Of a DNA stretch of 64,000 bases, positions 20,641 through 26,513 are shown piece by piece. The stretch comes from an uncultured Chloroflexia bacterium (lineage in GTDB: Bacteria > Chloroflexota > Chloroflexia > Thermomicrobiales > Thermomicrobiaceae): NCBI GenBank assembly GCA_963763185.1, contig CAVXNZ010000004.1, positions 10,791-74,790 of the forward strand. Direction: 5' to 3'. The position numbers were made by a program, and so were the translations under genes. Below the pieces are notes generated by a model. That model searched no databases. It was not told where the DNA came from and worked only from the letters and a program-made list of their open reading frames with translations. Every line of letters starts with the position of its first letter. Positions within the stretch are counted from its first letter, which is position 1.

Positions 20641-21024
20641 TTAGATCGCGGGCTGGATGCGTGGTTCAGCCGAACCTCCAGCGCTCGGGCCGAGATAGCG
20701 CGCGTCACCGAATCCGAGAATCGGGAAGAAGATGAAGCTGAGGAAGATCATGCCAACGACGAACCCGCCGCCCTTGCCGAACGAGCGGGCAATGTCGATC
20801 AGCAGGATGATTCCAGCGATTACGTTCACGAATGGGATCAGGAAGAGTACAAGCCACCAGACCGGGCGCCCAGCGATCTTCAGCCAGATGATCAGGTTAT
20901 AGATCGGAATGATCGCTGCCCAGCCCGGTTGTCCAGCTTTGGTGAAGATTTTCCAAATGCCGGCGATCTCGAGCACGATGATCGCGATGTACAGTACGAC
21001 GAACAGACCGGATCCGTTGTTCAT
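20641..21024 (-). CDS. small membrane protein (DUF5684-like)
   Basis: 127-aa ORF, 3-4 TM, IFTKAGQPGWAAIIPIYN motif typical of that family as I recall it. Confidence 0.72.
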   Translation of the reverse strand: MNNGSGLFVVLYIAIIVLEIAGIWKIFTKAGQPGWAAIIPIYNLIIWLKIAGRPVWWLVLFLIPFVNVIAGIILLIDIARSFGKGGGFVVGMIFLSFIFFPILGFGDARYLGPSAGGSAEPRIQPAI

Positions 21025-21339
21025 GAGACCTCCTTAGATCGCGAACTCGACGAACCGATATGGCGCGCCCTTCGCGCGCGTCTGCCCTGTCAGACTCCCG
21101 CTGACCCCAACCCCCTCTGGTCGACGCTCACGGAACGGAAAGCATACCCACGATTGGCAGATCATTTGACGTTCGTTGGCCCGTCGCGTGATTCGCACCG
21201 AACCAAACGCGTATTTCCTGAATGTCACAGTGATTTCTGACGCGATTATAGCTTGATCAGGGGTGTATGTACAGGGGTTACGCAGAGACGGGTGAGAGAG
21301 TATCCCGCCCGTCTGATCGCGATGCTGGTTTGTTCGGCT

Positions 21340-21366
21340 TAGTAGTGGCTGCTGACCGCTGAGCCG
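21340..21366. repeat. 27-bp direct repeat, copy A (TAGTAGTGGCTGCTGACCGCTGAGCCG)
   Basis: Exact match to 22261-22287. On the minus strand it reads ..GSAVSSHY followed by TAA. Confidence 0.95.
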
Positions 21367-21388
21367 GGGGAACGCTCGAAATGACGGA

Positions 21389-21718
21389 TCAGTGATAGAA
21401 ATCCAAGTTCGGTGGAACAATTTGCGATGACTGCTCCCTCGCCATTCGTTCGACTCTCGTTCTTGTTCGCACGGGCACGACGTGAATCGGTAGATGTTCT
21501 TCGAGCTGCAGTTCAAGGATGCGGTCGATCACGACATCCAGCACTTCATCAGGGTCATCCAGATCAACGCATGCGGTCAGGTAGATTCCTTCCGAGCTCT
21601 CCCCTCCAGGACCAACCGTGAAGGTTGCTGTCGGAAAGTGTCTCGTAATACACGTCTGCAGTTCGGCCAACACTTCCCGAGTGCGTGGGTCATCGGCGGT
21701 GTGGTGTTGGTGGCTCAT
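21389..21718 (-). CDS. hypothetical protein (109 aa), cassette partner of the HEPN gene
   Basis: Its ATG overlaps (ATGA) the TGA that would terminate the read-through-extended HEPN frame. Contains VGPGGESSEGIYLTACVDLDD, loosely resembling the minimal nucleotidyltransferase hG[GS]..DxD pattern; this is unverified. Confidence 0.6.
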   Translation of the reverse strand: MSHQHHTADDPRTREVLAELQTCITRHFPTATFTVGPGGESSEGIYLTACVDLDDPDEVLDVVIDRILELQLEEHLPIHVVPVRTRTRVERMAREQSSQIVPPNLDFYH

Positions 21719-22125
21719 TCGGCGTCACTCCCTAGCGACTGAATAGCGTGCACAAAGTCCTGCGTAGCCTTCAGCGCGCGCTGCGCCTGAGTCTGGCTGA
21801 CGAAGTCGGGCTAATAATCGGCTGTTTCTCGTAGGCTAGCCAGGCGCTCGAGTGTCGTGCGCAGCGTGGACGGATAGCGCTTCCGCCGATTAATCAATTC
21901 GCCGACGAACAGCGCCGGCAGTACCTCGTGACTCCAGCGAGGGCGCGAGCCTCGGGGAGTAAAGCCGGCTGCGAAAAGCGCCGCGGCCGCGGCGTGGAAA
22001 CACGCGTAGTAGCAGCGGTTGGCGCAGTTGTTGTAGCGCCCATTGACAAACTCACTTTGAGCGCCTGCCAAACATTCGATTGCTTTGGTCAGATAAATGA
22101 TGACGCGGCCATTCACAGTGCTCAT
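21715..22125 (-). pseudogene. HEPN domain protein interrupted by an in-frame TAG at 21811-21813
   Basis: Track ORF 21811..22125 ends ...LRETADY-TAG. The same frame continues PDFVSQTQAQRALKATQDFVHAIQSLGSDAE-TGA, which is the expected last HEPN helix. Total length is 411 nt, or 137 codons. Confidence 0.7.
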
Positions 22126-22259
22126 CGCAATTTCACATTATGACACGGCAGCCAACGACGAGCGAAGGGAGCGAGACAAATGTCCGCGCCCCCAGTCATT
22201 CGCGCAGTATCTGCCCCGCTCGTTCAAATCTGTATTGCAGAGCGCAAATACGGTAAACA

Positions 22260-23282
22260 CTAGTAGTGGCTGCTGACCGCTGAGCCGATGTTCAGGAAGT
22301 TCCACATGAAGTAGGCGTCGGCTTCCATCATGTTGACGCAGCCATGGCTGCCGTAGGTCCCGTACGCGGCCGGGGAACTCCAGTAGTTGGTGTGAATCGC
22401 GAACCCGCCGTCGGCGAAGTACTGCGTCCACTTGACGTGTGGCAGGTAGTAATAGCCTGGGCTCCCCTTCGGGACGCCGACGGTTGCCGAGTCCATCGTC
22501 TCGTCCGCGACGCGACGGATGATCTGGAACTGTCCGTCCGGTGTGCCGTGACCCTCGGTGCCCGTGATGATGATCGCCACGTGGACCGGCGTCGGCCCGT
22601 CGTAGGCCACCGCATAGAACTGCGACAGGTTGATGTCGAGCCAGTGACCGCTGTAGGTGGTCTGCGGCGTGTCGTAGACGAACGGCTGGACCAGCGAGGA
22701 TGACACGAACTGCCCGTCGCCGATGCGGAACCAGGTGGAGTTGCCGTTGACATCGTCACCTTTGACCGGCTCGATGACCGTGACCGGGTGCTTGTAGTAG
22801 GTGACACCCACCACTGACGCGCTCAGGGACGGCGCCGAACGAATGTTGAGCGAGCCGCTGGTTACCGTGCCGACGATCGAGCCATCCTGCAACTTCATCG
22901 CCTGATCCCAGCCATCCGGCATCTGCGCCGTGTTCGGATCCGTCGTCGGAGTCGGCGTCACCGGCGTCGGCGAGGGAGTCACCACCGGTGTTGGCGACGG
23001 CGTCACTGATGGCGCAGGAGTTGGTGTCACGGGCGCCGGAGTCGGCGTGACCGGGGTTGGCGTCGGTGTCACCGGTGTGGGTGTCGGCGTCGCCGGTTTC
23101 GGAGTGGGTGTGGGCGTCACGACGACTGGTGTCGCCTCTGGAGTCTGTGTGACGGGAATGGGTGTGGGCGTGCCGTCATTCGCCGCTGCTGGCTGATCGA
23201 AGATCAGCCCACTCGAGGCACCGATGGCAAAGACCATCATCAAAACCCCCACAAGTAGGGTCGCGAAGGCAGCGGCGCGCAT
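22260..23282 (-). CDS. L,D-transpeptidase (YkuD) with N-terminal TM, Pro/Thr-rich linker and SH3b-like domain
   Basis: 340-aa ORF. Catalytic GSHGCVNM and long PTPTPVTPTP repeats (DNA about 22930-23150). Confidence 0.9.
   Translation of the reverse strand: MRAAAFATLLVGVLMMVFAIGASSGLIFDQPAAANDGTPTPIPVTQTPEATPVVVTPTPTPKPATPTPTPVTPTPTPVTPTPAPVTPTPAPSVTPSPTPVVTPSPTPVTPTPTTDPNTAQMPDGWDQAMKLQDGSIVGTVTSGSLNIRSAPSLSASVVGVTYYKHPVTVIEPVKGDDVNGNSTWFRIGDGQFVSSSLVQPFVYDTPQTTYSGHWLDINLSQFYAVAYDGPTPVHVAIIITGTEGHGTPDGQFQIIRRVADETMDSATVGVPKGSPGYYYLPHVKWTQYFADGGFAIHTNYWSSPAAYGTYGSHGCVNMMEADAYFMWNFLNIGSAVSSHY
22261..22287. repeat. 27-bp direct repeat, copy B (3' end of the L,D-transpeptidase gene)
   Basis: Exact match to 21340-21366. 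Encodes the C-terminal GSAVSSHY of the transpeptidase. Confidence 0.95.
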
Positions 23283-23702: not shown

Positions 23703-24128
23703 ATGCAGGAAAAAGCTGACAGAATGGCGATCATCGCTTTCTCTGGCACCGTCGATAAGATGATTGCCGTCTCCACCCTGGCGACGGGCGCGGTCGCCAT
23801 GGGGATGGAGGTCGATATCTTCATAACCACCTGGGGGCTTCAGGCATTCCGCAAAGGGGCTGTTGCGACCAACATGCGGATCAGCAAGGACTTCGAAGAG
23901 TTTGGTCCGGCGATGATGGAAGCGATGCAGGCCAAAAAGATGCCGTCCTGGCTCGACACCCTCAAGCAAGCGAGGGAGTTCGGCGATATCCACGTCTTTG
24001 CCTGCAGCCAGACCATGGAGCTGCTCGGCATGACCATGGACGACCTCGAGGATGTGGTCGAGGACGTCATGGGCGCGGCGGGATTCGTCGGCCGGGCACA
24101 GGATTCGAAGATTCAGCTCTTTATCTAG
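23703..24128 (+). CDS. DsrE/DsrF-like sulfur-relay family protein
   Basis: ATG at 23703 (MQEKADRMAIIAFSGTVDKMIA...) within track ORF 23655..24128. The ...HVFACSQTMELLG Cys block is present. Confidence 0.78.
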   Translation: MQEKADRMAIIAFSGTVDKMIAVSTLATGAVAMGMEVDIFITTWGLQAFRKGAVATNMRISKDFEEFGPAMMEAMQAKKMPSWLDTLKQAREFGDIHVFACSQTMELLGMTMDDLEDVVEDVMGAAGFVGRAQDSKIQLFI

Positions 24129-24176
24129 CTAGAGTCCGGCGGCCGTACATCGCAGAATGGCGACAAGGAGAACAAC

Positions 24177-24416
24177 ATGGCTGAAGTCACGATCGATAAA
24201 GAAGTCGATGCACGCGGGAGTTTCTGCCCAGGTCCATTGATGGAGCTCATGCGTGCGGTCAAGACCGCGTCGGTCGGCAGCACCATCGCGGTCCTCTCGT
24301 CCGACCCCGGTTCGAACAAGGACATCCCGGTCTGGGTCGCGAAGGCGAAGCACGAGTATATCGGTGCGTTCGAGGAGGATGGGTACACCCGGTTCGTGAT
24401 TCGCAAGGCGCACTAG
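24177..24416 (+). CDS. TusA/SirA-like sulfurtransferase
   Basis: 79-aa ORF with the DARGSFCPGPLMEL (CPxP) motif. Confidence 0.87.
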   Translation: MAEVTIDKEVDARGSFCPGPLMELMRAVKTASVGSTIAVLSSDPGSNKDIPVWVAKAKHEYIGAFEEDGYTRFVIRKAH

Positions 24417-24428
24417 AGGGAGGGTCCG

Positions 24429-25568
24429 ATGTCGTCACGCGTGTTGATTCTAGGAGGAGGTGTCGGCGGCACGCTCGCCGCTAATCTCCTGGCCCGGAAG
24501 CTGAGAAAGGATGATGTCGAGCTAACCATTGCCGATCTGGACGGCAAGCACGTCTACCAGCCGGGCTGGCTCTACATTCCGTTCGGCAAAGAGTCGGAGC
24601 GCAATCTGGTCAGGTCGGAACGGAGCCTGCTCGACCGTCGCGTCAACCTGGTAATCGACAATTTCAGCAGGATCGATCTGGAGAAGAAGCAGGTCGTGGC
24701 TGACAGTGGCACCGTCCTCTCATACGACTATCTCGTCATCGCGACGGGCTCACGGAACCACTCCGAGGAGGTTCCGGGGATGGTCGAGGGCGCGCATCAC
24801 TTCTACTCGGCCGAAGCGGCCAACCGGCTCGCTGCGGCGCTCAAAGGAATGGAATCGGGCAGGATCATCGTCGGAGTCGGTGGCATCCCGCATCGTTGCC
24901 CACCCGCGCCGCTCGAATTCGTTCTGCTGCTCGATGCCGAGCTTCGCCATCAGCACAAGCGCGACCGGTTCGAACTGACGTATACCTATCCAATCGGACG
25001 CTGCTTCACCATCGAGAGTGTCGCAAACTTCGTGACGCCCATTCTCGCGGAGCGAGGCATTCGGGACGAAGTCTTCTTCAACCCAGAGATCGTCGATGTC
25101 GAGAAGAAACAGGTTACCTCGATGGAGGGGACGACCCTCGACTACGATCTGCTGGTGATGATCCCACCGCACCGGGGAGCCCAGATCGTCGACGATTCCA
25201 AAATTGGCGACGACCAGGGCTGGATCCCGACCGAACGGAACACCTTGCAGATGAAGGGCCAGGAGCACGTCTTCGCCATCGGCGACGCGACGGACCTGCC
25301 AGTGTCGAAGAGCGGCTCGGCGGCGCACTTCCAGGCGAAGGTCGTGGCCGACCGGATCGAGGCGGCGATCACTGGACGGCCGCTCGAGAACGGGCATTAT
25401 GACGGCCACGTCATGTGCTTCCTGGAGACCGGCAACGAACAGGCGACGACGTTGAACTTCGACTACGATCATCCGCCTGAACCACCGCGTCCGAGCCGGA
25501 TCTATCACTACGAGAAGACCCTCTTCAACAAGACCTACTGGTACATCGTGCCACGGGGGATTGTCTAG
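24429..25568 (+). CDS. FAD-dependent pyridine nucleotide-disulfide oxidoreductase, sulfide:quinone oxidoreductase-like
   Basis: 379-aa ORF with ILGGGVGGTLAAN, FAIGDATD and conserved Cys residues. Confidence 0.82.
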   Translation: MSSRVLILGGGVGGTLAANLLARKLRKDDVELTIADLDGKHVYQPGWLYIPFGKESERNLVRSERSLLDRRVNLVIDNFSRIDLEKKQVVADSGTVLSYDYLVIATGSRNHSEEVPGMVEGAHHFYSAEAANRLAAALKGMESGRIIVGVGGIPHRCPPAPLEFVLLLDAELRHQHKRDRFELTYTYPIGRCFTIESVANFVTPILAERGIRDEVFFNPEIVDVEKKQVTSMEGTTLDYDLLVMIPPHRGAQIVDDSKIGDDQGWIPTERNTLQMKGQEHVFAIGDATDLPVSKSGSAAHFQAKVVADRIEAAITGRPLENGHYDGHVMCFLETGNEQATTLNFDYDHPPEPPRPSRIYHYEKTLFNKTYWYIVPRGIV

Positions 25569-25700
25569 CCCGCAGTCACGAGGGGGTGGAATGGTTCACG
25601 GGGGCGAGAAATCGCCTCCGTCGTTCGTGTCTGTGACGCGTGGTTCACGTGCATAATTTGATCGATTTGTCGCTGCCGCGTTCACTGGTGGGAGTACCTG

Positions 25701-26513
25701 ATGACGGACCGCCGCTGCTTACCCGACTACCATCTGCACACCGCGATGTCGATTGACAGCAAGATGTCGATGGAGGAAGCGTGCCGCCAGGCGATCGCTC
25801 TCGGGCTCGACGAGATTTGCTTCACCGAGCACGTCGACTTCATTCCTGAAGATGAGGGCTGCGGCTTCTTCGACCCGGGTAGCTATTTCCAGTTGATCGA
25901 GCGTTGCCGCGAGGAGTTTGACGGACGCATGACGGTGCGCGCAGGCATCGAGATCGGCGAAGCGCACCGGTTTGCCGATGAGGGCCGTGAACTTACCGCG
26001 TCCAATCCGTTCGATTTCGTGATCGGCTCGCTCCACTGGGTGGGGCCGGATCTGGTGATGACGCCCGACTATTTCGTGGGCAAGTCGTTGGAGCAGGCGT
26101 ATGGCGCCTATTTCGACGAGTTGCTGGCGCTGGTGCGGGTAGGCGACTTTGACATCGTCGGGCATCTGGATGTGCCGAAACGCTATGCGGGCGATCTTCA
26201 CGAGCGCTTCGATCCACGACCGTTCGAGGATCGGATTCGTCCCGTCCTGCAAGTCTGTGTCGAGCGAGGCATCGGCATCGAGATCAATACAGGAACGATT
26301 CGTAAGACCGGGAACGATCCATCTCCATCGATCGAGGTACTGAACTGGTACCGGGAGCTGGGCGGCGAGATCCTGACGATCGGCTCCGACGCCCATCGTC
26401 CGGAGGACATGGCCTATGGCTTCGATCAGGCGCGTGCCATGGTCCGAGAGGCCGGTTTTACCCACCTGACCACGTTCCAGCAGCGACGATCCCAGTTCGT
26501 GCGCCTGGATTGA
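25701..26513 (+). CDS. PHP-domain histidinol-phosphatase (HisJ family)
   Basis: 270-aa ORF with DYHLHT, CFTEHVDF, GSLHWV, HLD and GSDAH metal-ligand blocks. Confidence 0.84.
   Translation: MTDRRCLPDYHLHTAMSIDSKMSMEEACRQAIALGLDEICFTEHVDFIPEDEGCGFFDPGSYFQLIERCREEFDGRMTVRAGIEIGEAHRFADEGRELTASNPFDFVIGSLHWVGPDLVMTPDYFVGKSLEQAYGAYFDELLALVRVGDFDIVGHLDVPKRYAGDLHERFDPRPFEDRIRPVLQVCVERGIGIEINTGTIRKTGNDPSPSIEVLNWYRELGGEILTIGSDAHRPEDMAYGFDQARAMVREAGFTHLTTFQQRRSQFVRLD

What the first reader, a model, noticed from the sequence alone, without database searches (positions are those of the whole stretch)
21340..22287. Compact HEPN two-gene cassette bracketed by exact 27-bp direct repeats that duplicate the 3' end of the L,D-transpeptidase gene
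Seen in the sequence:
- TAGTAGTGGCTGCTGACCGCTGAGCCG occurs at 21340-21366 and at 22261-22287.
- Copy B is the last 8 codons plus part of the stop of the L,D-transpeptidase gene.
- Copy A, 921 bp downstream, preserves the same 8 codons followed by TAA, but has no gene attached.
- Between the repeats lies only a roughly 135-nt promoter-like stretch, the HEPN gene and a translationally coupled 109-aa gene.
- Sequence outside the repeats shows no further similarity.

Established knowledge: integrative elements that target the 3' ends of genes regenerate the gene end and leave att-like direct repeats.

Inference: this looks like a roughly 0.9-kb integrated toxin-antitoxin or defence mini-cassette with attL/attR-like repeats. 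It has no integrase of its own, so it is either mobilised in trans or a decayed islet.
Basis: partly seen in the sequence, partly recalled or inferred. Interest (0 to 1): 0.6.

Follow-up and report, generated by a model that had tools for sequence, protein, structure and literature searches.

The report
Recombinase-free toxin-antitoxin cassette duplicating gene end
A 0.9-kb two-gene toxin-antitoxin-like cassette was recently inserted at the very end of a cell-wall enzyme gene, duplicating the gene's last 27 bases. Related cassettes in other bacteria leave the same footprint at unrelated genes, so these selfish gene pairs appear to spread without a mobility enzyme of their own.

Summary
The exact 27-mer occurs only at 21340-21366 and 22261-22287 in the 5.1-Mb genome. 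Nine genomes of the same genus have ldt, terminator and DUF5684 with a single copy of the site, so this is a clean 894-bp insertion plus a 27-bp duplication.

The cargo is a PF05168 HEPN gene, now carrying an in-frame TAG, followed by an uncharacterised 109-aa partner that I call p109.

The att/integrase reading is only partly supported:
- The HEPN-p109 pair is conserved in Chloroflexota (about 89 non-redundant loci).
- It is flanked by direct repeats far more often than controls: 11 of 79 real loci, 0 of 232 shifted positions, 3 of 600 random positions.
- Those repeats lie at unrelated targets (guaA, a pyrE-like gene, a carboxyltransferase, a LuxR-type gene, a TPP riboswitch). They measure 22-98 bp and share no motif. 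The inserts have no conserved ends and no integrase.
- The same genome holds three more small inserts bracketed by duplicated gene ends: MNT-HepT at comM, ParE at an RraA-like gene, and a hydrolase at a glyoxalase gene.
- Across five repeat pairs, the intact and displaced copies differ mostly by synonymous changes (28 against 9).

Best reading: host-recombination insertion with gene-end duplication or displacement. The closest known cases are "insertion with long target duplication" of restriction-modification units and homology-facilitated illegitimate recombination. The mechanism is inferred, not shown.

The parts
22260..23282 (-). L,D-transpeptidase gene (ldt; signal/TM segment, Pro/Thr-rich linker, SH3_3, YkuD). 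This is the intact target gene; its stop TAG is at 22262-22260.
   Evidence: ORF. Pfam PF03734 E 3e-17 and PF08239 E 4e-9. Orthologues at 70-85% identity in 10 genomes of the same genus.
22261..22287 (.). Repeat copy B: the last 25 nt of the ldt coding sequence plus the TA of its stop codon. The G that completes TAG is the first base of the insert.
21367..22260 (-). The 894-bp insert that is absent from relatives. GC is 56.8% against 61.1% in the flanks.
   Evidence: Empty-site alignment; composition. Single copy in the genome and absent from 14 genomes of the same genus.
22126..22260 (-). 135-nt non-coding 5' part of the insert. Only the last ~16 nt, holding the -10 box, resemble any related cassette.
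   Evidence: blastn against all related loci
22137..22145 (-). Extended -10-like box (TGT CATAAT), ending 11 nt before the HEPN ATG. It is conserved as TGnTACAAT in related cassettes. It is a likely promoter for a near-leaderless mRNA (inferred).
   Evidence: Sequence; comparison of the upstream regions of 13 loci
21715..22125 (-). HEPN-domain gene, a pseudogene here. In-frame TAG at 21811-21813 replaces Gln, directly after the family motif R-x2-A-D-Y. The read-through frame ends in an ATGA overlap with the next gene.
   Evidence: A Logan contig from a soil metagenome covers the site with no change there.
21389..21718 (-). 109-aa partner gene (p109), intact. No Pfam, NCBIfam or PADLOC family. 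The predicted alpha/beta fold has no PDB match. Inferred antitoxin.
21367..21388 (-). 22-nt 3' spacer of the insert, between the p109 stop and copy A.
21340..21366 (.). Repeat copy A: the displaced ldt end, now non-coding. It is followed by the native TAA (21341-21339).
21286..21314 (-). Terminator-like hairpin (AGACGGG...CCCGTCT). It is homologous in position to the G+C-rich hairpin that follows ldt in the empty-site relatives.
20641..21024 (-). DUF5684 membrane-protein gene, the native downstream neighbour of ldt in all relatives.

Best explanation
The 894-bp segment is a horizontally acquired, non-autonomous two-gene addiction-type module. It consists of a HEPN toxin-like gene, now inactivated by a nonsense codon, and an uncharacterised 109-aa antitoxin-like partner, with its own promoter.

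It entered the chromosome at the stop codon of ldt. I infer this happened through the host's own recombination and repair, not through a dedicated recombinase. The event left the gene intact and pushed a 27-bp copy of the gene end, with the native TAA and terminator, downstream of the cassette.

Two sub-mechanisms fit, and I cannot separate them for this locus:
(b) Homology-anchored import, either homology-facilitated illegitimate recombination or Campbell-type single crossover. Here the incoming DNA carries the cassette joined to a copy of the gene end, which becomes the functional end while the resident end is displaced.

What is shown:
- The insertion, the duplication and the empty sites.
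- Recurrence of the same footprint in this cassette family and in other cassettes of the same genome.
- Absence of a recombinase gene and of conserved element ends.

What is inferred:
- The enzymology.
- The toxin and antitoxin roles.
- That addictive cargo explains why such otherwise unstable repeat-flanked inserts persist. With the toxin now dead, the cassette should be free to be lost by recombination between the repeats.
For: Insertion:
- Nine genomes of the same genus have ldt, hairpin and DUF5684 with one copy of the site. The closest is G002, with 2 mismatches in 27.
- Both flanks align up to and from the 27-mer.
- Insert GC is 56.8% against 61.1% in the flanks.
- The cassette is single-copy in the genome and absent from 14 genomes of the same genus.

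Recurrence in the family:
- Flanking direct repeats score >=20 in 11 of 79 evaluable HEPN-p109 loci, against 0 of 232 shifted positions and 3 of 600 random genome positions.
- The target sites are distinct:
  - guaA 3' end (L049: 98 bp, 96%; L065: 81 bp, 95%).
  - A LuxR-type gene end (L069: 22 bp, exact).
  - The 3' region of a carboxyltransferase (L119-122).
  - A pyrE-like gene (L148: 43 bp).
  - The start of a TPP riboswitch (L103 and L124).
  - The 5' end of a hyuB-like gene (L110).
  - A candidate-phyla-radiation locus (L040).
- The guaA empty site was confirmed in G043 and G045.

No dedicated machinery:
- The repeats share no motif.
- The inserts have no conserved termini or inverted repeats.
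- The non-coding flanks of the inserts are unrelated between loci.
- There is no integrase on the contig.

Generality within this genome:
- MNT-HepT sits at comM with a 92-bp repeat, ParE at an RraA-like gene with a 73-bp repeat, and a hydrolase at a glyoxalase gene with a 73-bp repeat.
- The ParE site is empty in G002.

The displaced copies look like alleles:
- There are 28 synonymous or stop-to-stop codon differences against 9 nonsynonymous.
- The displaced RraA copy is closer to the genus consensus than the functional copy.

HEPN decay:
- HEPN is intact in 38, disrupted in 20 and absent in 15 of 73 loci, while p109 is retained.

Precedents:
- Restriction-modification units inserted with long variable target duplications that often span start or stop codons (PMC2853133).
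- Homology-facilitated displacement of gene 3' ends (PMC5361080).
Against: - No enzyme or intermediate was observed. Reads from the only runs that hold this organism are too sparse to show empty-site alleles or circles.
- In at least four independent cases the insert abuts the preserved gene's stop codon within 0-8 nt (WIN, guaA, L069, L119). A plain staggered-break model does not predict this, and it is also the hallmark of integrase att sites.
- For ldt itself the two copies are identical (27/27), and ldt stays sister to G002 up to its 3' end. There is therefore no positive sign of an imported allele at this locus.
- 27 bp is just under the 30-bp threshold used in the literature for 'long' target duplication.
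- The HEPN-decay count is biased, because loci were found through p109.
- The toxin and antitoxin roles are untested.
Confidence: 0.6

Rival explanations
1. Site-specific integration: the cassette is a miniature integrative element (CIME-like). Its attP mimics the ldt 3' end, and a tyrosine or serine recombinase encoded elsewhere moves it in trans. The 27-mers would be attL and attR.
For: - The repeat ends at the gene end, and the insert supplies the last base of a new stop codon.
- In the guaA, comM and RraA cases the functional copy and the displaced copy differ like two alleles. That is what is expected when an element-borne gene end becomes functional on integration.
- guaA 3' ends are known integrase targets (own knowledge).
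- The genome has 6-7 tyrosine recombinase genes and two classical islands at tRNA genes.
Against: - There is no integrase in or next to any of the >=12 repeat-flanked mini-cassettes examined.
- The 27-mer has no third copy or near copy in the genome.
- No recombinase gene lies on contig C4.
- Related cassettes use unrelated repeats of 22-98 bp.
- The 0-180-nt flanks leave no room for conserved arm sites and are not conserved even between the two guaA elements.
- The repeats have no dyad symmetry.
Confidence: 0.2
2. Decayed islet: a larger integrase-bearing island once sat at the ldt end and was deleted down to the toxin-antitoxin pair, leaving both att sites.
For: Addictive modules can survive deletion of the rest of an island (general knowledge). 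The repeats have an att-like position.
Against: - The same ~0.9-kb spacing recurs at >=8 independent targets: 878-976 bp in most, about 1.08-1.28 kb in three. That would need deletions ending within 0-170 nt of the far att site each time.
- The insert holds no gene fragments other than the cassette.
Confidence: 0.04
3. Not an insertion: either the arrangement is ancestral and relatives lost the cassette, or the repeat is an assembly artefact.
For: - Precise loss by recombination between the repeats would also give empty sites.
- For the older comM and RraA cassettes the distribution is patchy: present in the more distant G001 (and, for comM, G004) but absent in the closer G002.
Against: - For ldt, all 9 genomes of the same genus that have the locus are empty, and none of the 14 searched carries the cassette anywhere.
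- The displaced copy is still 27/27 identical although it is non-coding.
- Insert GC is lower than its surroundings.
- Imperfect repeats in related loci cannot be k-mer artefacts.
- Independent Logan contigs cover parts of the cassette and the copy-B junction side.
Confidence: 0.04

Closest known systems
Insertion with long (variable) target duplication of restriction-modification gene complexes (Nobusato et al. 2000, Gene 259:99; Furuta, Abe & Kobayashi 2010, NAR 38:2428, PMC2853133)
   Same: - A small selfish 'addiction' gene unit with no mobility gene.
- Direct repeats that align with a single target copy in a related genome.
- Repeat length and sequence differ from case to case.
- The repeats often span the stop or start of the neighbouring gene, so the gene stays intact.
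- The mechanism is unknown.
   Different: - The cargo is a HEPN toxin-antitoxin-like pair, not a DNA-cutting restriction-modification system. The proposed role of restriction breaks therefore cannot apply.
- The duplication here is 27 bp, below their 30-bp cut-off; relatives have 43-98 bp.
- In older cases of this lineage the two copies differ like alleles, which those papers did not describe.
Homology-facilitated illegitimate recombination and displacement of gene 3' ends (de Vries & Wackernagel 2002; Prudhomme et al. 2002; orphan 3'-end arrays at Rhs/CDI/T6SS loci, e.g. Kirchberger et al. 2017, PMC5361080)
   Same: - An incoming segment is anchored in a conserved gene and brings new downstream genes.
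- The resident gene end is pushed downstream as a relic.
- No dedicated recombinase is involved.
- The functional and displaced ends differ mainly at synonymous sites.
   Different: - Those arrays concern polymorphic toxin genes whose 3' ends are themselves the cargo. Here a housekeeping gene end is only the anchor.
- For ldt no allelic difference is visible (27/27).
Integrase-type integrative elements and CIMEs (att-flanked elements without recombination genes, e.g. at the fda 3' end in streptococci; own knowledge)
   Same: - Direct repeats made of the 3' end of a gene.
- The gene end is regenerated.
- There is no integrase inside the element.
   Different: - CIMEs derive from, and are moved by, a cognate ICE or IME integrase with a fixed att site. 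Here there is no cognate element.
- There is no fixed site and there are no conserved ends.
- Many different targets are used by related cassettes.
HEPN-MNT (HepT/MntA, type VII) toxin-antitoxin modules
   Same: A small HEPN-domain protein encoded in a tight two-gene operon. HEPN is frequently pseudogenised while the partner persists.
   Different: - The HEPN is of the PF05168 type with R-x2-A-D-Y instead of Rx4-6H.
- Gene order is HEPN first.
- The partner is not a nucleotidyltransferase and matches no known family or fold.

Membership tests
Integrase-mediated integrative element / CIME | Direct repeats at both ends that correspond to one site in an empty relative | tested here: met
Integrase-mediated integrative element / CIME | A cognate recombinase, either in the element or in a related resident element that uses the same att sequence | tested here: not met
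   - The insert holds only HEPN and p109.
- The 27-mer has no further copy with <=3 mismatches.
- PF00589 hits lie on C1, C2 and C7 only.
- Serine recombinases were not searched.
Integrase-mediated integrative element / CIME | Conserved att and arm sequences among related elements | tested here: not met
   Repeats and insert flanks are unrelated between loci, even between the two guaA elements
Integrase-mediated integrative element / CIME | Excision to a circle and an empty site | not testable with these tools
   The only runs holding the organism give 0-3x contig depth and no joints
Insertion with long target duplication (criteria of Furuta et al. 2010) | Insert <20 kb without mobility genes, flanked by direct repeats that both align to the single target in a related genome | tested here: met
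   criteria quoted
Insertion with long target duplication (criteria of Furuta et al. 2010) | Duplication longer than 30 bp | tested here: not met
   It is 27 bp here. Related HEPN-p109 loci have 43-98 bp, and the other cassettes of this genome have 73-92 bp.
Insertion with long target duplication (criteria of Furuta et al. 2010) | Both repeat copies derive from the recipient target | tested here: inconclusive
   The copies are identical here, and both carry the lineage-specific Tyr codon. In older cases the copies look like two alleles.
Homology-facilitated illegitimate recombination / gene-end displacement | The native gene end with its own stop and downstream flank is displaced behind the incoming module | tested here: met
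   Copy A, TAA and the hairpin are homologous to the empty-site flank. The same holds for guaA and L069.
Homology-facilitated illegitimate recombination / gene-end displacement | The functional gene end is of donor origin | tested here: inconclusive
   There is no difference in the 27 bp, and ldt stays sister to G002 to its end. The feature is supported for RraA and by the shared GAATAG end in the guaA cases.
HEPN-MNT (HepT/MntA) toxin-antitoxin | HEPN domain with the Rx4-6H catalytic motif | tested here: not met
   PF05168 hit E 4e-14, but the motif is R-E-T-A-D-Y. The family consensus is R-x2-A-D-Y.
HEPN-MNT (HepT/MntA) toxin-antitoxin | Nucleotidyltransferase (MNT) partner | tested here: not met
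   - p109 has no Pfam, NCBIfam or PADLOC hit.
- Its AF2 model (pLDDT 72) has no PDB match with E<0.03.
- A profile search of PDB sequences found nothing relevant.
Type II-like toxin-antitoxin module (generic) | One product is toxic and the other neutralises it | not tested
   The only evidence is indirect: a tight conserved gene pair with an ATGA overlap, and frequent HEPN decay with the partner retained.

The most novel reading that the evidence does not exclude
Small toxin-antitoxin cassettes form a class of recombinase-free mobile cassettes. Examples here are HEPN-p109, MNT-HepT and ParE modules in the same genome. They travel joined to a short copy of a conserved host gene end or start, which serves as a portable homology patch. 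They cycle in and out of that site by the host's homologous or illegitimate recombination. Because each repeat copy is the functional gene end in one of the two states, both stay under purifying selection, which would explain why their differences are mostly synonymous.
Probability: 0.3. Interest if true: 0.75.

Novelty: new variant of a known kind. Interest (0 to 1): 0.6.

Why it matters
How chromosomal toxin-antitoxin modules move between genomes is a long-standing loose end. They are patchily distributed and clearly mobile, yet most carry no mobility gene.

This locus gives a clean, young example with an exact duplication and nine empty sites. Its relatives show that the footprint is systematic. 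It recurs at unrelated genes in one cassette family, and it is shared by three other cassettes in the same genome.

This extends 'insertion with long target duplication', described for restriction-modification units, to RNA-targeting addiction modules. That argues against the proposed dependence on DNA cleavage by the cargo. It points instead to host recombination, with persistence aided by addiction.

It also defines a new HEPN partner protein family without known fold relatives.

Finally, it makes a testable prediction: one-sided homology plus an addictive cargo should be enough for capture.

Tried and rejected
- **Dispersed repeat family:** rejected. The 27-mer has only two copies in the genome.
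- **Chance repeat:** rejected.
- **Integron attC, dif/Xer site or transposon inverted repeats:** the repeat has no dyad symmetry and the insert has no terminal inverted repeats.
- **tRNA or known RNA at the site:** none.
- **CRISPR-like or casposon-like duplication:** considered only from the repeat length and not pursued. The insert has no conserved ends and repeat lengths vary 22-98 bp.
- **Retro-insertion of a transcript:** rejected, because the insert includes its own promoter and idiosyncratic upstream DNA.
- **Foreign tract in the ldt 3' part:** none seen.
- **Read evidence for excision or an empty allele:** depth is too low.
- **Identity of p109:**
  - Pfam, NCBIfam and PADLOC found nothing.
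  - The PDB sequence profile found nothing relevant.
  - AF2 plus Foldseek against the PDB found nothing significant.
- **Other exact-repeat candidates in the genome** (C1:2204772, C3:171441, C1:1005506): these turned out to be paralogue motifs.
- **Literature:** searches for toxin-antitoxin cassettes with this footprint found no description under the phrases used.
Full report
**1. The observation**

The 27-mer TAGTAGTGGCTGCTGACCGCTGAGCCG occurs exactly twice in the window, at 21340-21366 and 22261-22287. None is expected by chance. It occurs nowhere else in the 5.12-Mb genome, even with three mismatches.

All genes here lie on the minus strand.
- Copy B is the last eight codons (GSAVSSHY) plus the TA of the TAG stop of a YkuD/SH3_3 L,D-transpeptidase gene at 22260-23282.
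- Copy A carries the same codons followed by TAA and a hairpin at 21286-21314.
- Nothing outside the 27 bp is similar.

Between the copies lie, in order:
- 135 nt of non-coding DNA;
- a PF05168 HEPN gene (E 4e-14);
- a 109-aa ORF with no family match, which I call p109;
- 22 nt of spacer.

The HEPN frame has an in-frame TAG at 21811-21813 where relatives have CAG. The gene is therefore a pseudogene, and the ATGA overlap with p109 exists only in the read-through frame. A Logan contig from a soil metagenome covers this stretch without a change at that codon.

**2. It is an insertion**

Ten genomes of the same genus have an ldt orthologue (70-85% identity), and DUF5684 matches lie beside it. In the nine I checked at the site there is a single copy of the 27-mer homologue. 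The closest relative, G002, has TAGAAGTGGCTGCTGACCGCCGAGCCG.

The window's left flank plus copy A aligns with the empty site up to the end of the 27-mer. Copy B plus the right flank aligns from its start. The event is therefore a clean 894-bp insertion with a 27-bp duplication.

Further support:
- The insert has 56.8% GC against 61.1% in the flanks.
- It is single-copy in the genome.
- It is absent from all 14 genomes of the same genus that were searched.
- The displaced copy is still identical to the functional one, so the event is young.

**3. The cargo**

p109 belongs to a small family; 20 hits were returned in the 5.8-billion-protein search. It is essentially confined to Chloroflexota.

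In 111 loci, 89 of them non-redundant, p109 lies directly downstream of the same HEPN type. That HEPN type has the motifs NNCANRCYY and R-x2-A-D-Y. An extended -10 box (TGnTACAAT) lies 7-12 nt before the HEPN start.

p109 has no Pfam, NCBIfam or PADLOC match. Its AF2 model (pLDDT 72; helix-strand-strand-helix-strand-helix) has no significant PDB neighbour.

HEPN is intact in 38, disrupted in 20 and missing in 15 of 73 evaluable loci, while p109 persists. This fits HEPN as toxin and p109 as antitoxin. The sample was anchored on p109, however, and neither role has been tested.

**4. The footprint recurs**

I aligned the 450 bp left of each cassette against the 450 bp to its right. Repeat scores of 20 or more occurred at:
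- 11 of 79 evaluable loci;
- 0 of 232 shifted positions in the same loci;
- 3 of 600 random positions in this genome.

The distinct targets are:
- **guaA 3' end:** L049 (98 bp, 96%) and L065 (81 bp, 95%). Empty sites were confirmed in G043 and G045.
- **End of a convergent LuxR-type gene:** L069, 22 bp exact, ending precisely at its TGA.
- **3' region of a carboxyltransferase:** L119-122.
- **A pyrE-like gene:** L148, 43 bp.
- **First bases of a TPP riboswitch:** L103 and L124.
- **Ribosome-binding site and start of a hyuB-like gene:** L110.
- **A locus in a candidate-phyla-radiation genome:** L040.

Spacing is 878-976 bp in most cases, so the two-gene cassette is the unit. The repeats share no motif. 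The inserts have no conserved or inverted termini. Their non-coding flanks are unrelated between loci.

**5. The same genome has more of them**

A scan for imperfect repeats found three further cases:
- comM/yifB, then MNT (PF01909) plus HepT (PF01934), then a 92-bp copy of the comM end.
- An RraA-like gene, then a ParE-family toxin gene (PF05016), then a 73-bp copy of the gene end.
- A glyoxalase gene, then an alpha/beta-hydrolase, then a 73-bp copy of the gene end.

The ParE site is empty in G002. The comM and ParE cassettes are also present in the more distant G001, and the comM cassette in G004 as well.

Across five repeat pairs, the functional and displaced copies differ at 28 synonymous or stop-to-stop codons against 9 nonsynonymous ones.
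- p = 1e-8 against a 30% expectation for unconstrained change.
- p = 0.008 against a 55% expectation for a mixture of constrained and unconstrained change.

The displaced RraA end is closer to the genus consensus than the functional end. Both guaA elements share a GAA TAG functional end, while the displaced ends keep the GAG TGA seen in an empty-site relative.

The displaced copies therefore look like alleles that were functional until recently. A duplicate left to decay neutrally would not look like this.

**6. Mechanism**

*Against a dedicated integrase.* No recombinase gene lies in or beside any of these cassettes. None of the genome's 6-7 tyrosine recombinase genes is on this 119-kb contig. 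Targets differ, the repeats lack symmetry, and there is no space for conserved arm sites.

*Against a decayed islet.* The size of the unit is constant across independent targets.

*What fits* is insertion by host recombination with duplication or displacement of a gene end. There are two variants:
- (a) Insertion with long, variable target duplication, as described for restriction-modification units. Those repeats also often span stop or start codons (PMC2853133).
- (b) Homology-anchored import, either homology-facilitated illegitimate recombination or Campbell-type. Here the incoming DNA supplies the functional gene end (PMC5361080).

Variant (b) better explains the allele-like differences. 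It also explains why the insert abuts the stop codon within 0-8 nt in several independent cases.

For ldt itself the copies are identical, and ldt remains sister to G002 up to its end. Either the donor was conspecific, or variant (a) applies.

I also infer that addictive cargo explains the persistence of repeat-flanked inserts that would otherwise be lost by recombination between the repeats. With HEPN now inactivated, this copy should be free to be lost.

**7. Unexplained**

- The insert junction coincides with functional edges: stop codons, and the riboswitch start.
- In L119 and L148 the repeat is internal to the gene's 3' region, and the displaced copy is not followed by a recognisable gene tail.

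**8. Earlier notes of this scan**

Earlier notes list many analogous toxin-antitoxin cassettes with duplicated gene ends in archaea and candidate-phyla-radiation bacteria. I saw them after forming my reading. I treat them as leads, not as support.

**9. Verdict**

The att/integrase interpretation is partly supported: the architecture is right, the enzyme is not. This is a new variant of a known kind, and it carries a new HEPN partner family. Confidence in the host-recombination explanation is about 0.6.

Noticed in passing
G000:C7:279028-281437 (locus L161:29-2438): The comM/yifB gene is followed by an MNT (PF01909) plus HepT (PF01934) toxin-antitoxin pair, then a 92-bp copy of the comM 3' end. 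The copies match at 84/92, with 7 synonymous and 1 conservative differences. The cassette is also present in G001 and G004 and absent in G002 and five other genomes of the same genus.
   Followed up: partly
G000:C1:2360061-2361412 (locus L162:262-1613): An RraA-like gene is followed by a ParE-family toxin gene (PF05016; upstream antitoxin ORF not examined), then a 73-bp copy of the RraA gene end (62/73). The site is empty in G002. The displaced copy is closer to the genus consensus than the functional one.
   Followed up: partly
G000:C7:940052-942280 (locus L163): A 73-bp copy (65/73, mostly synonymous differences) of the 3' end of a glyoxalase-family gene lies 2156 bp downstream. The two copies bracket a 368-aa alpha/beta-hydrolase gene, so this is the same footprint with a cargo that is not a toxin-antitoxin pair.
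   Followed up: no
G000:C1:1721290-1729034 and C1:1764996-1770175: Two classical islands of 7.7 and 5.1 kb are bracketed by 58-bp and 76-bp exact repeats of tRNA 3' halves. The first holds a tyrosine recombinase gene (C1:1721861-1722364).
   Followed up: no
window 23800-25720: The stretch carrying the DsrE-like and TusA genes and the start of the SQR-like gene has no counterpart in the otherwise collinear region of G002, which has only about 220 bp there. It is another presence/absence difference close to the cassette.
   Followed up: no
L103:2838-2948 and L124:2889-3019: In two related metagenome loci the HEPN-p109 cassette sits just upstream of a TPP riboswitch (RF00059). It is flanked by a duplicated copy of the riboswitch's first 23-47 nt. 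HEPN is a pseudogene in both loci.
   Followed up: partly
L162:1696-1830 (G000:C1:~2361495-2361630): A REP-like dispersed element of about 35-130 nt has dozens of near-identical copies in this genome and in all genomes of the same genus. It sits just downstream of the displaced RraA end.
   Followed up: no
L035:2629-3327 and L036:2636-3309: Two Chloroflexota loci carry two tandem, diverged p109 genes after a single HEPN gene.
   Followed up: no
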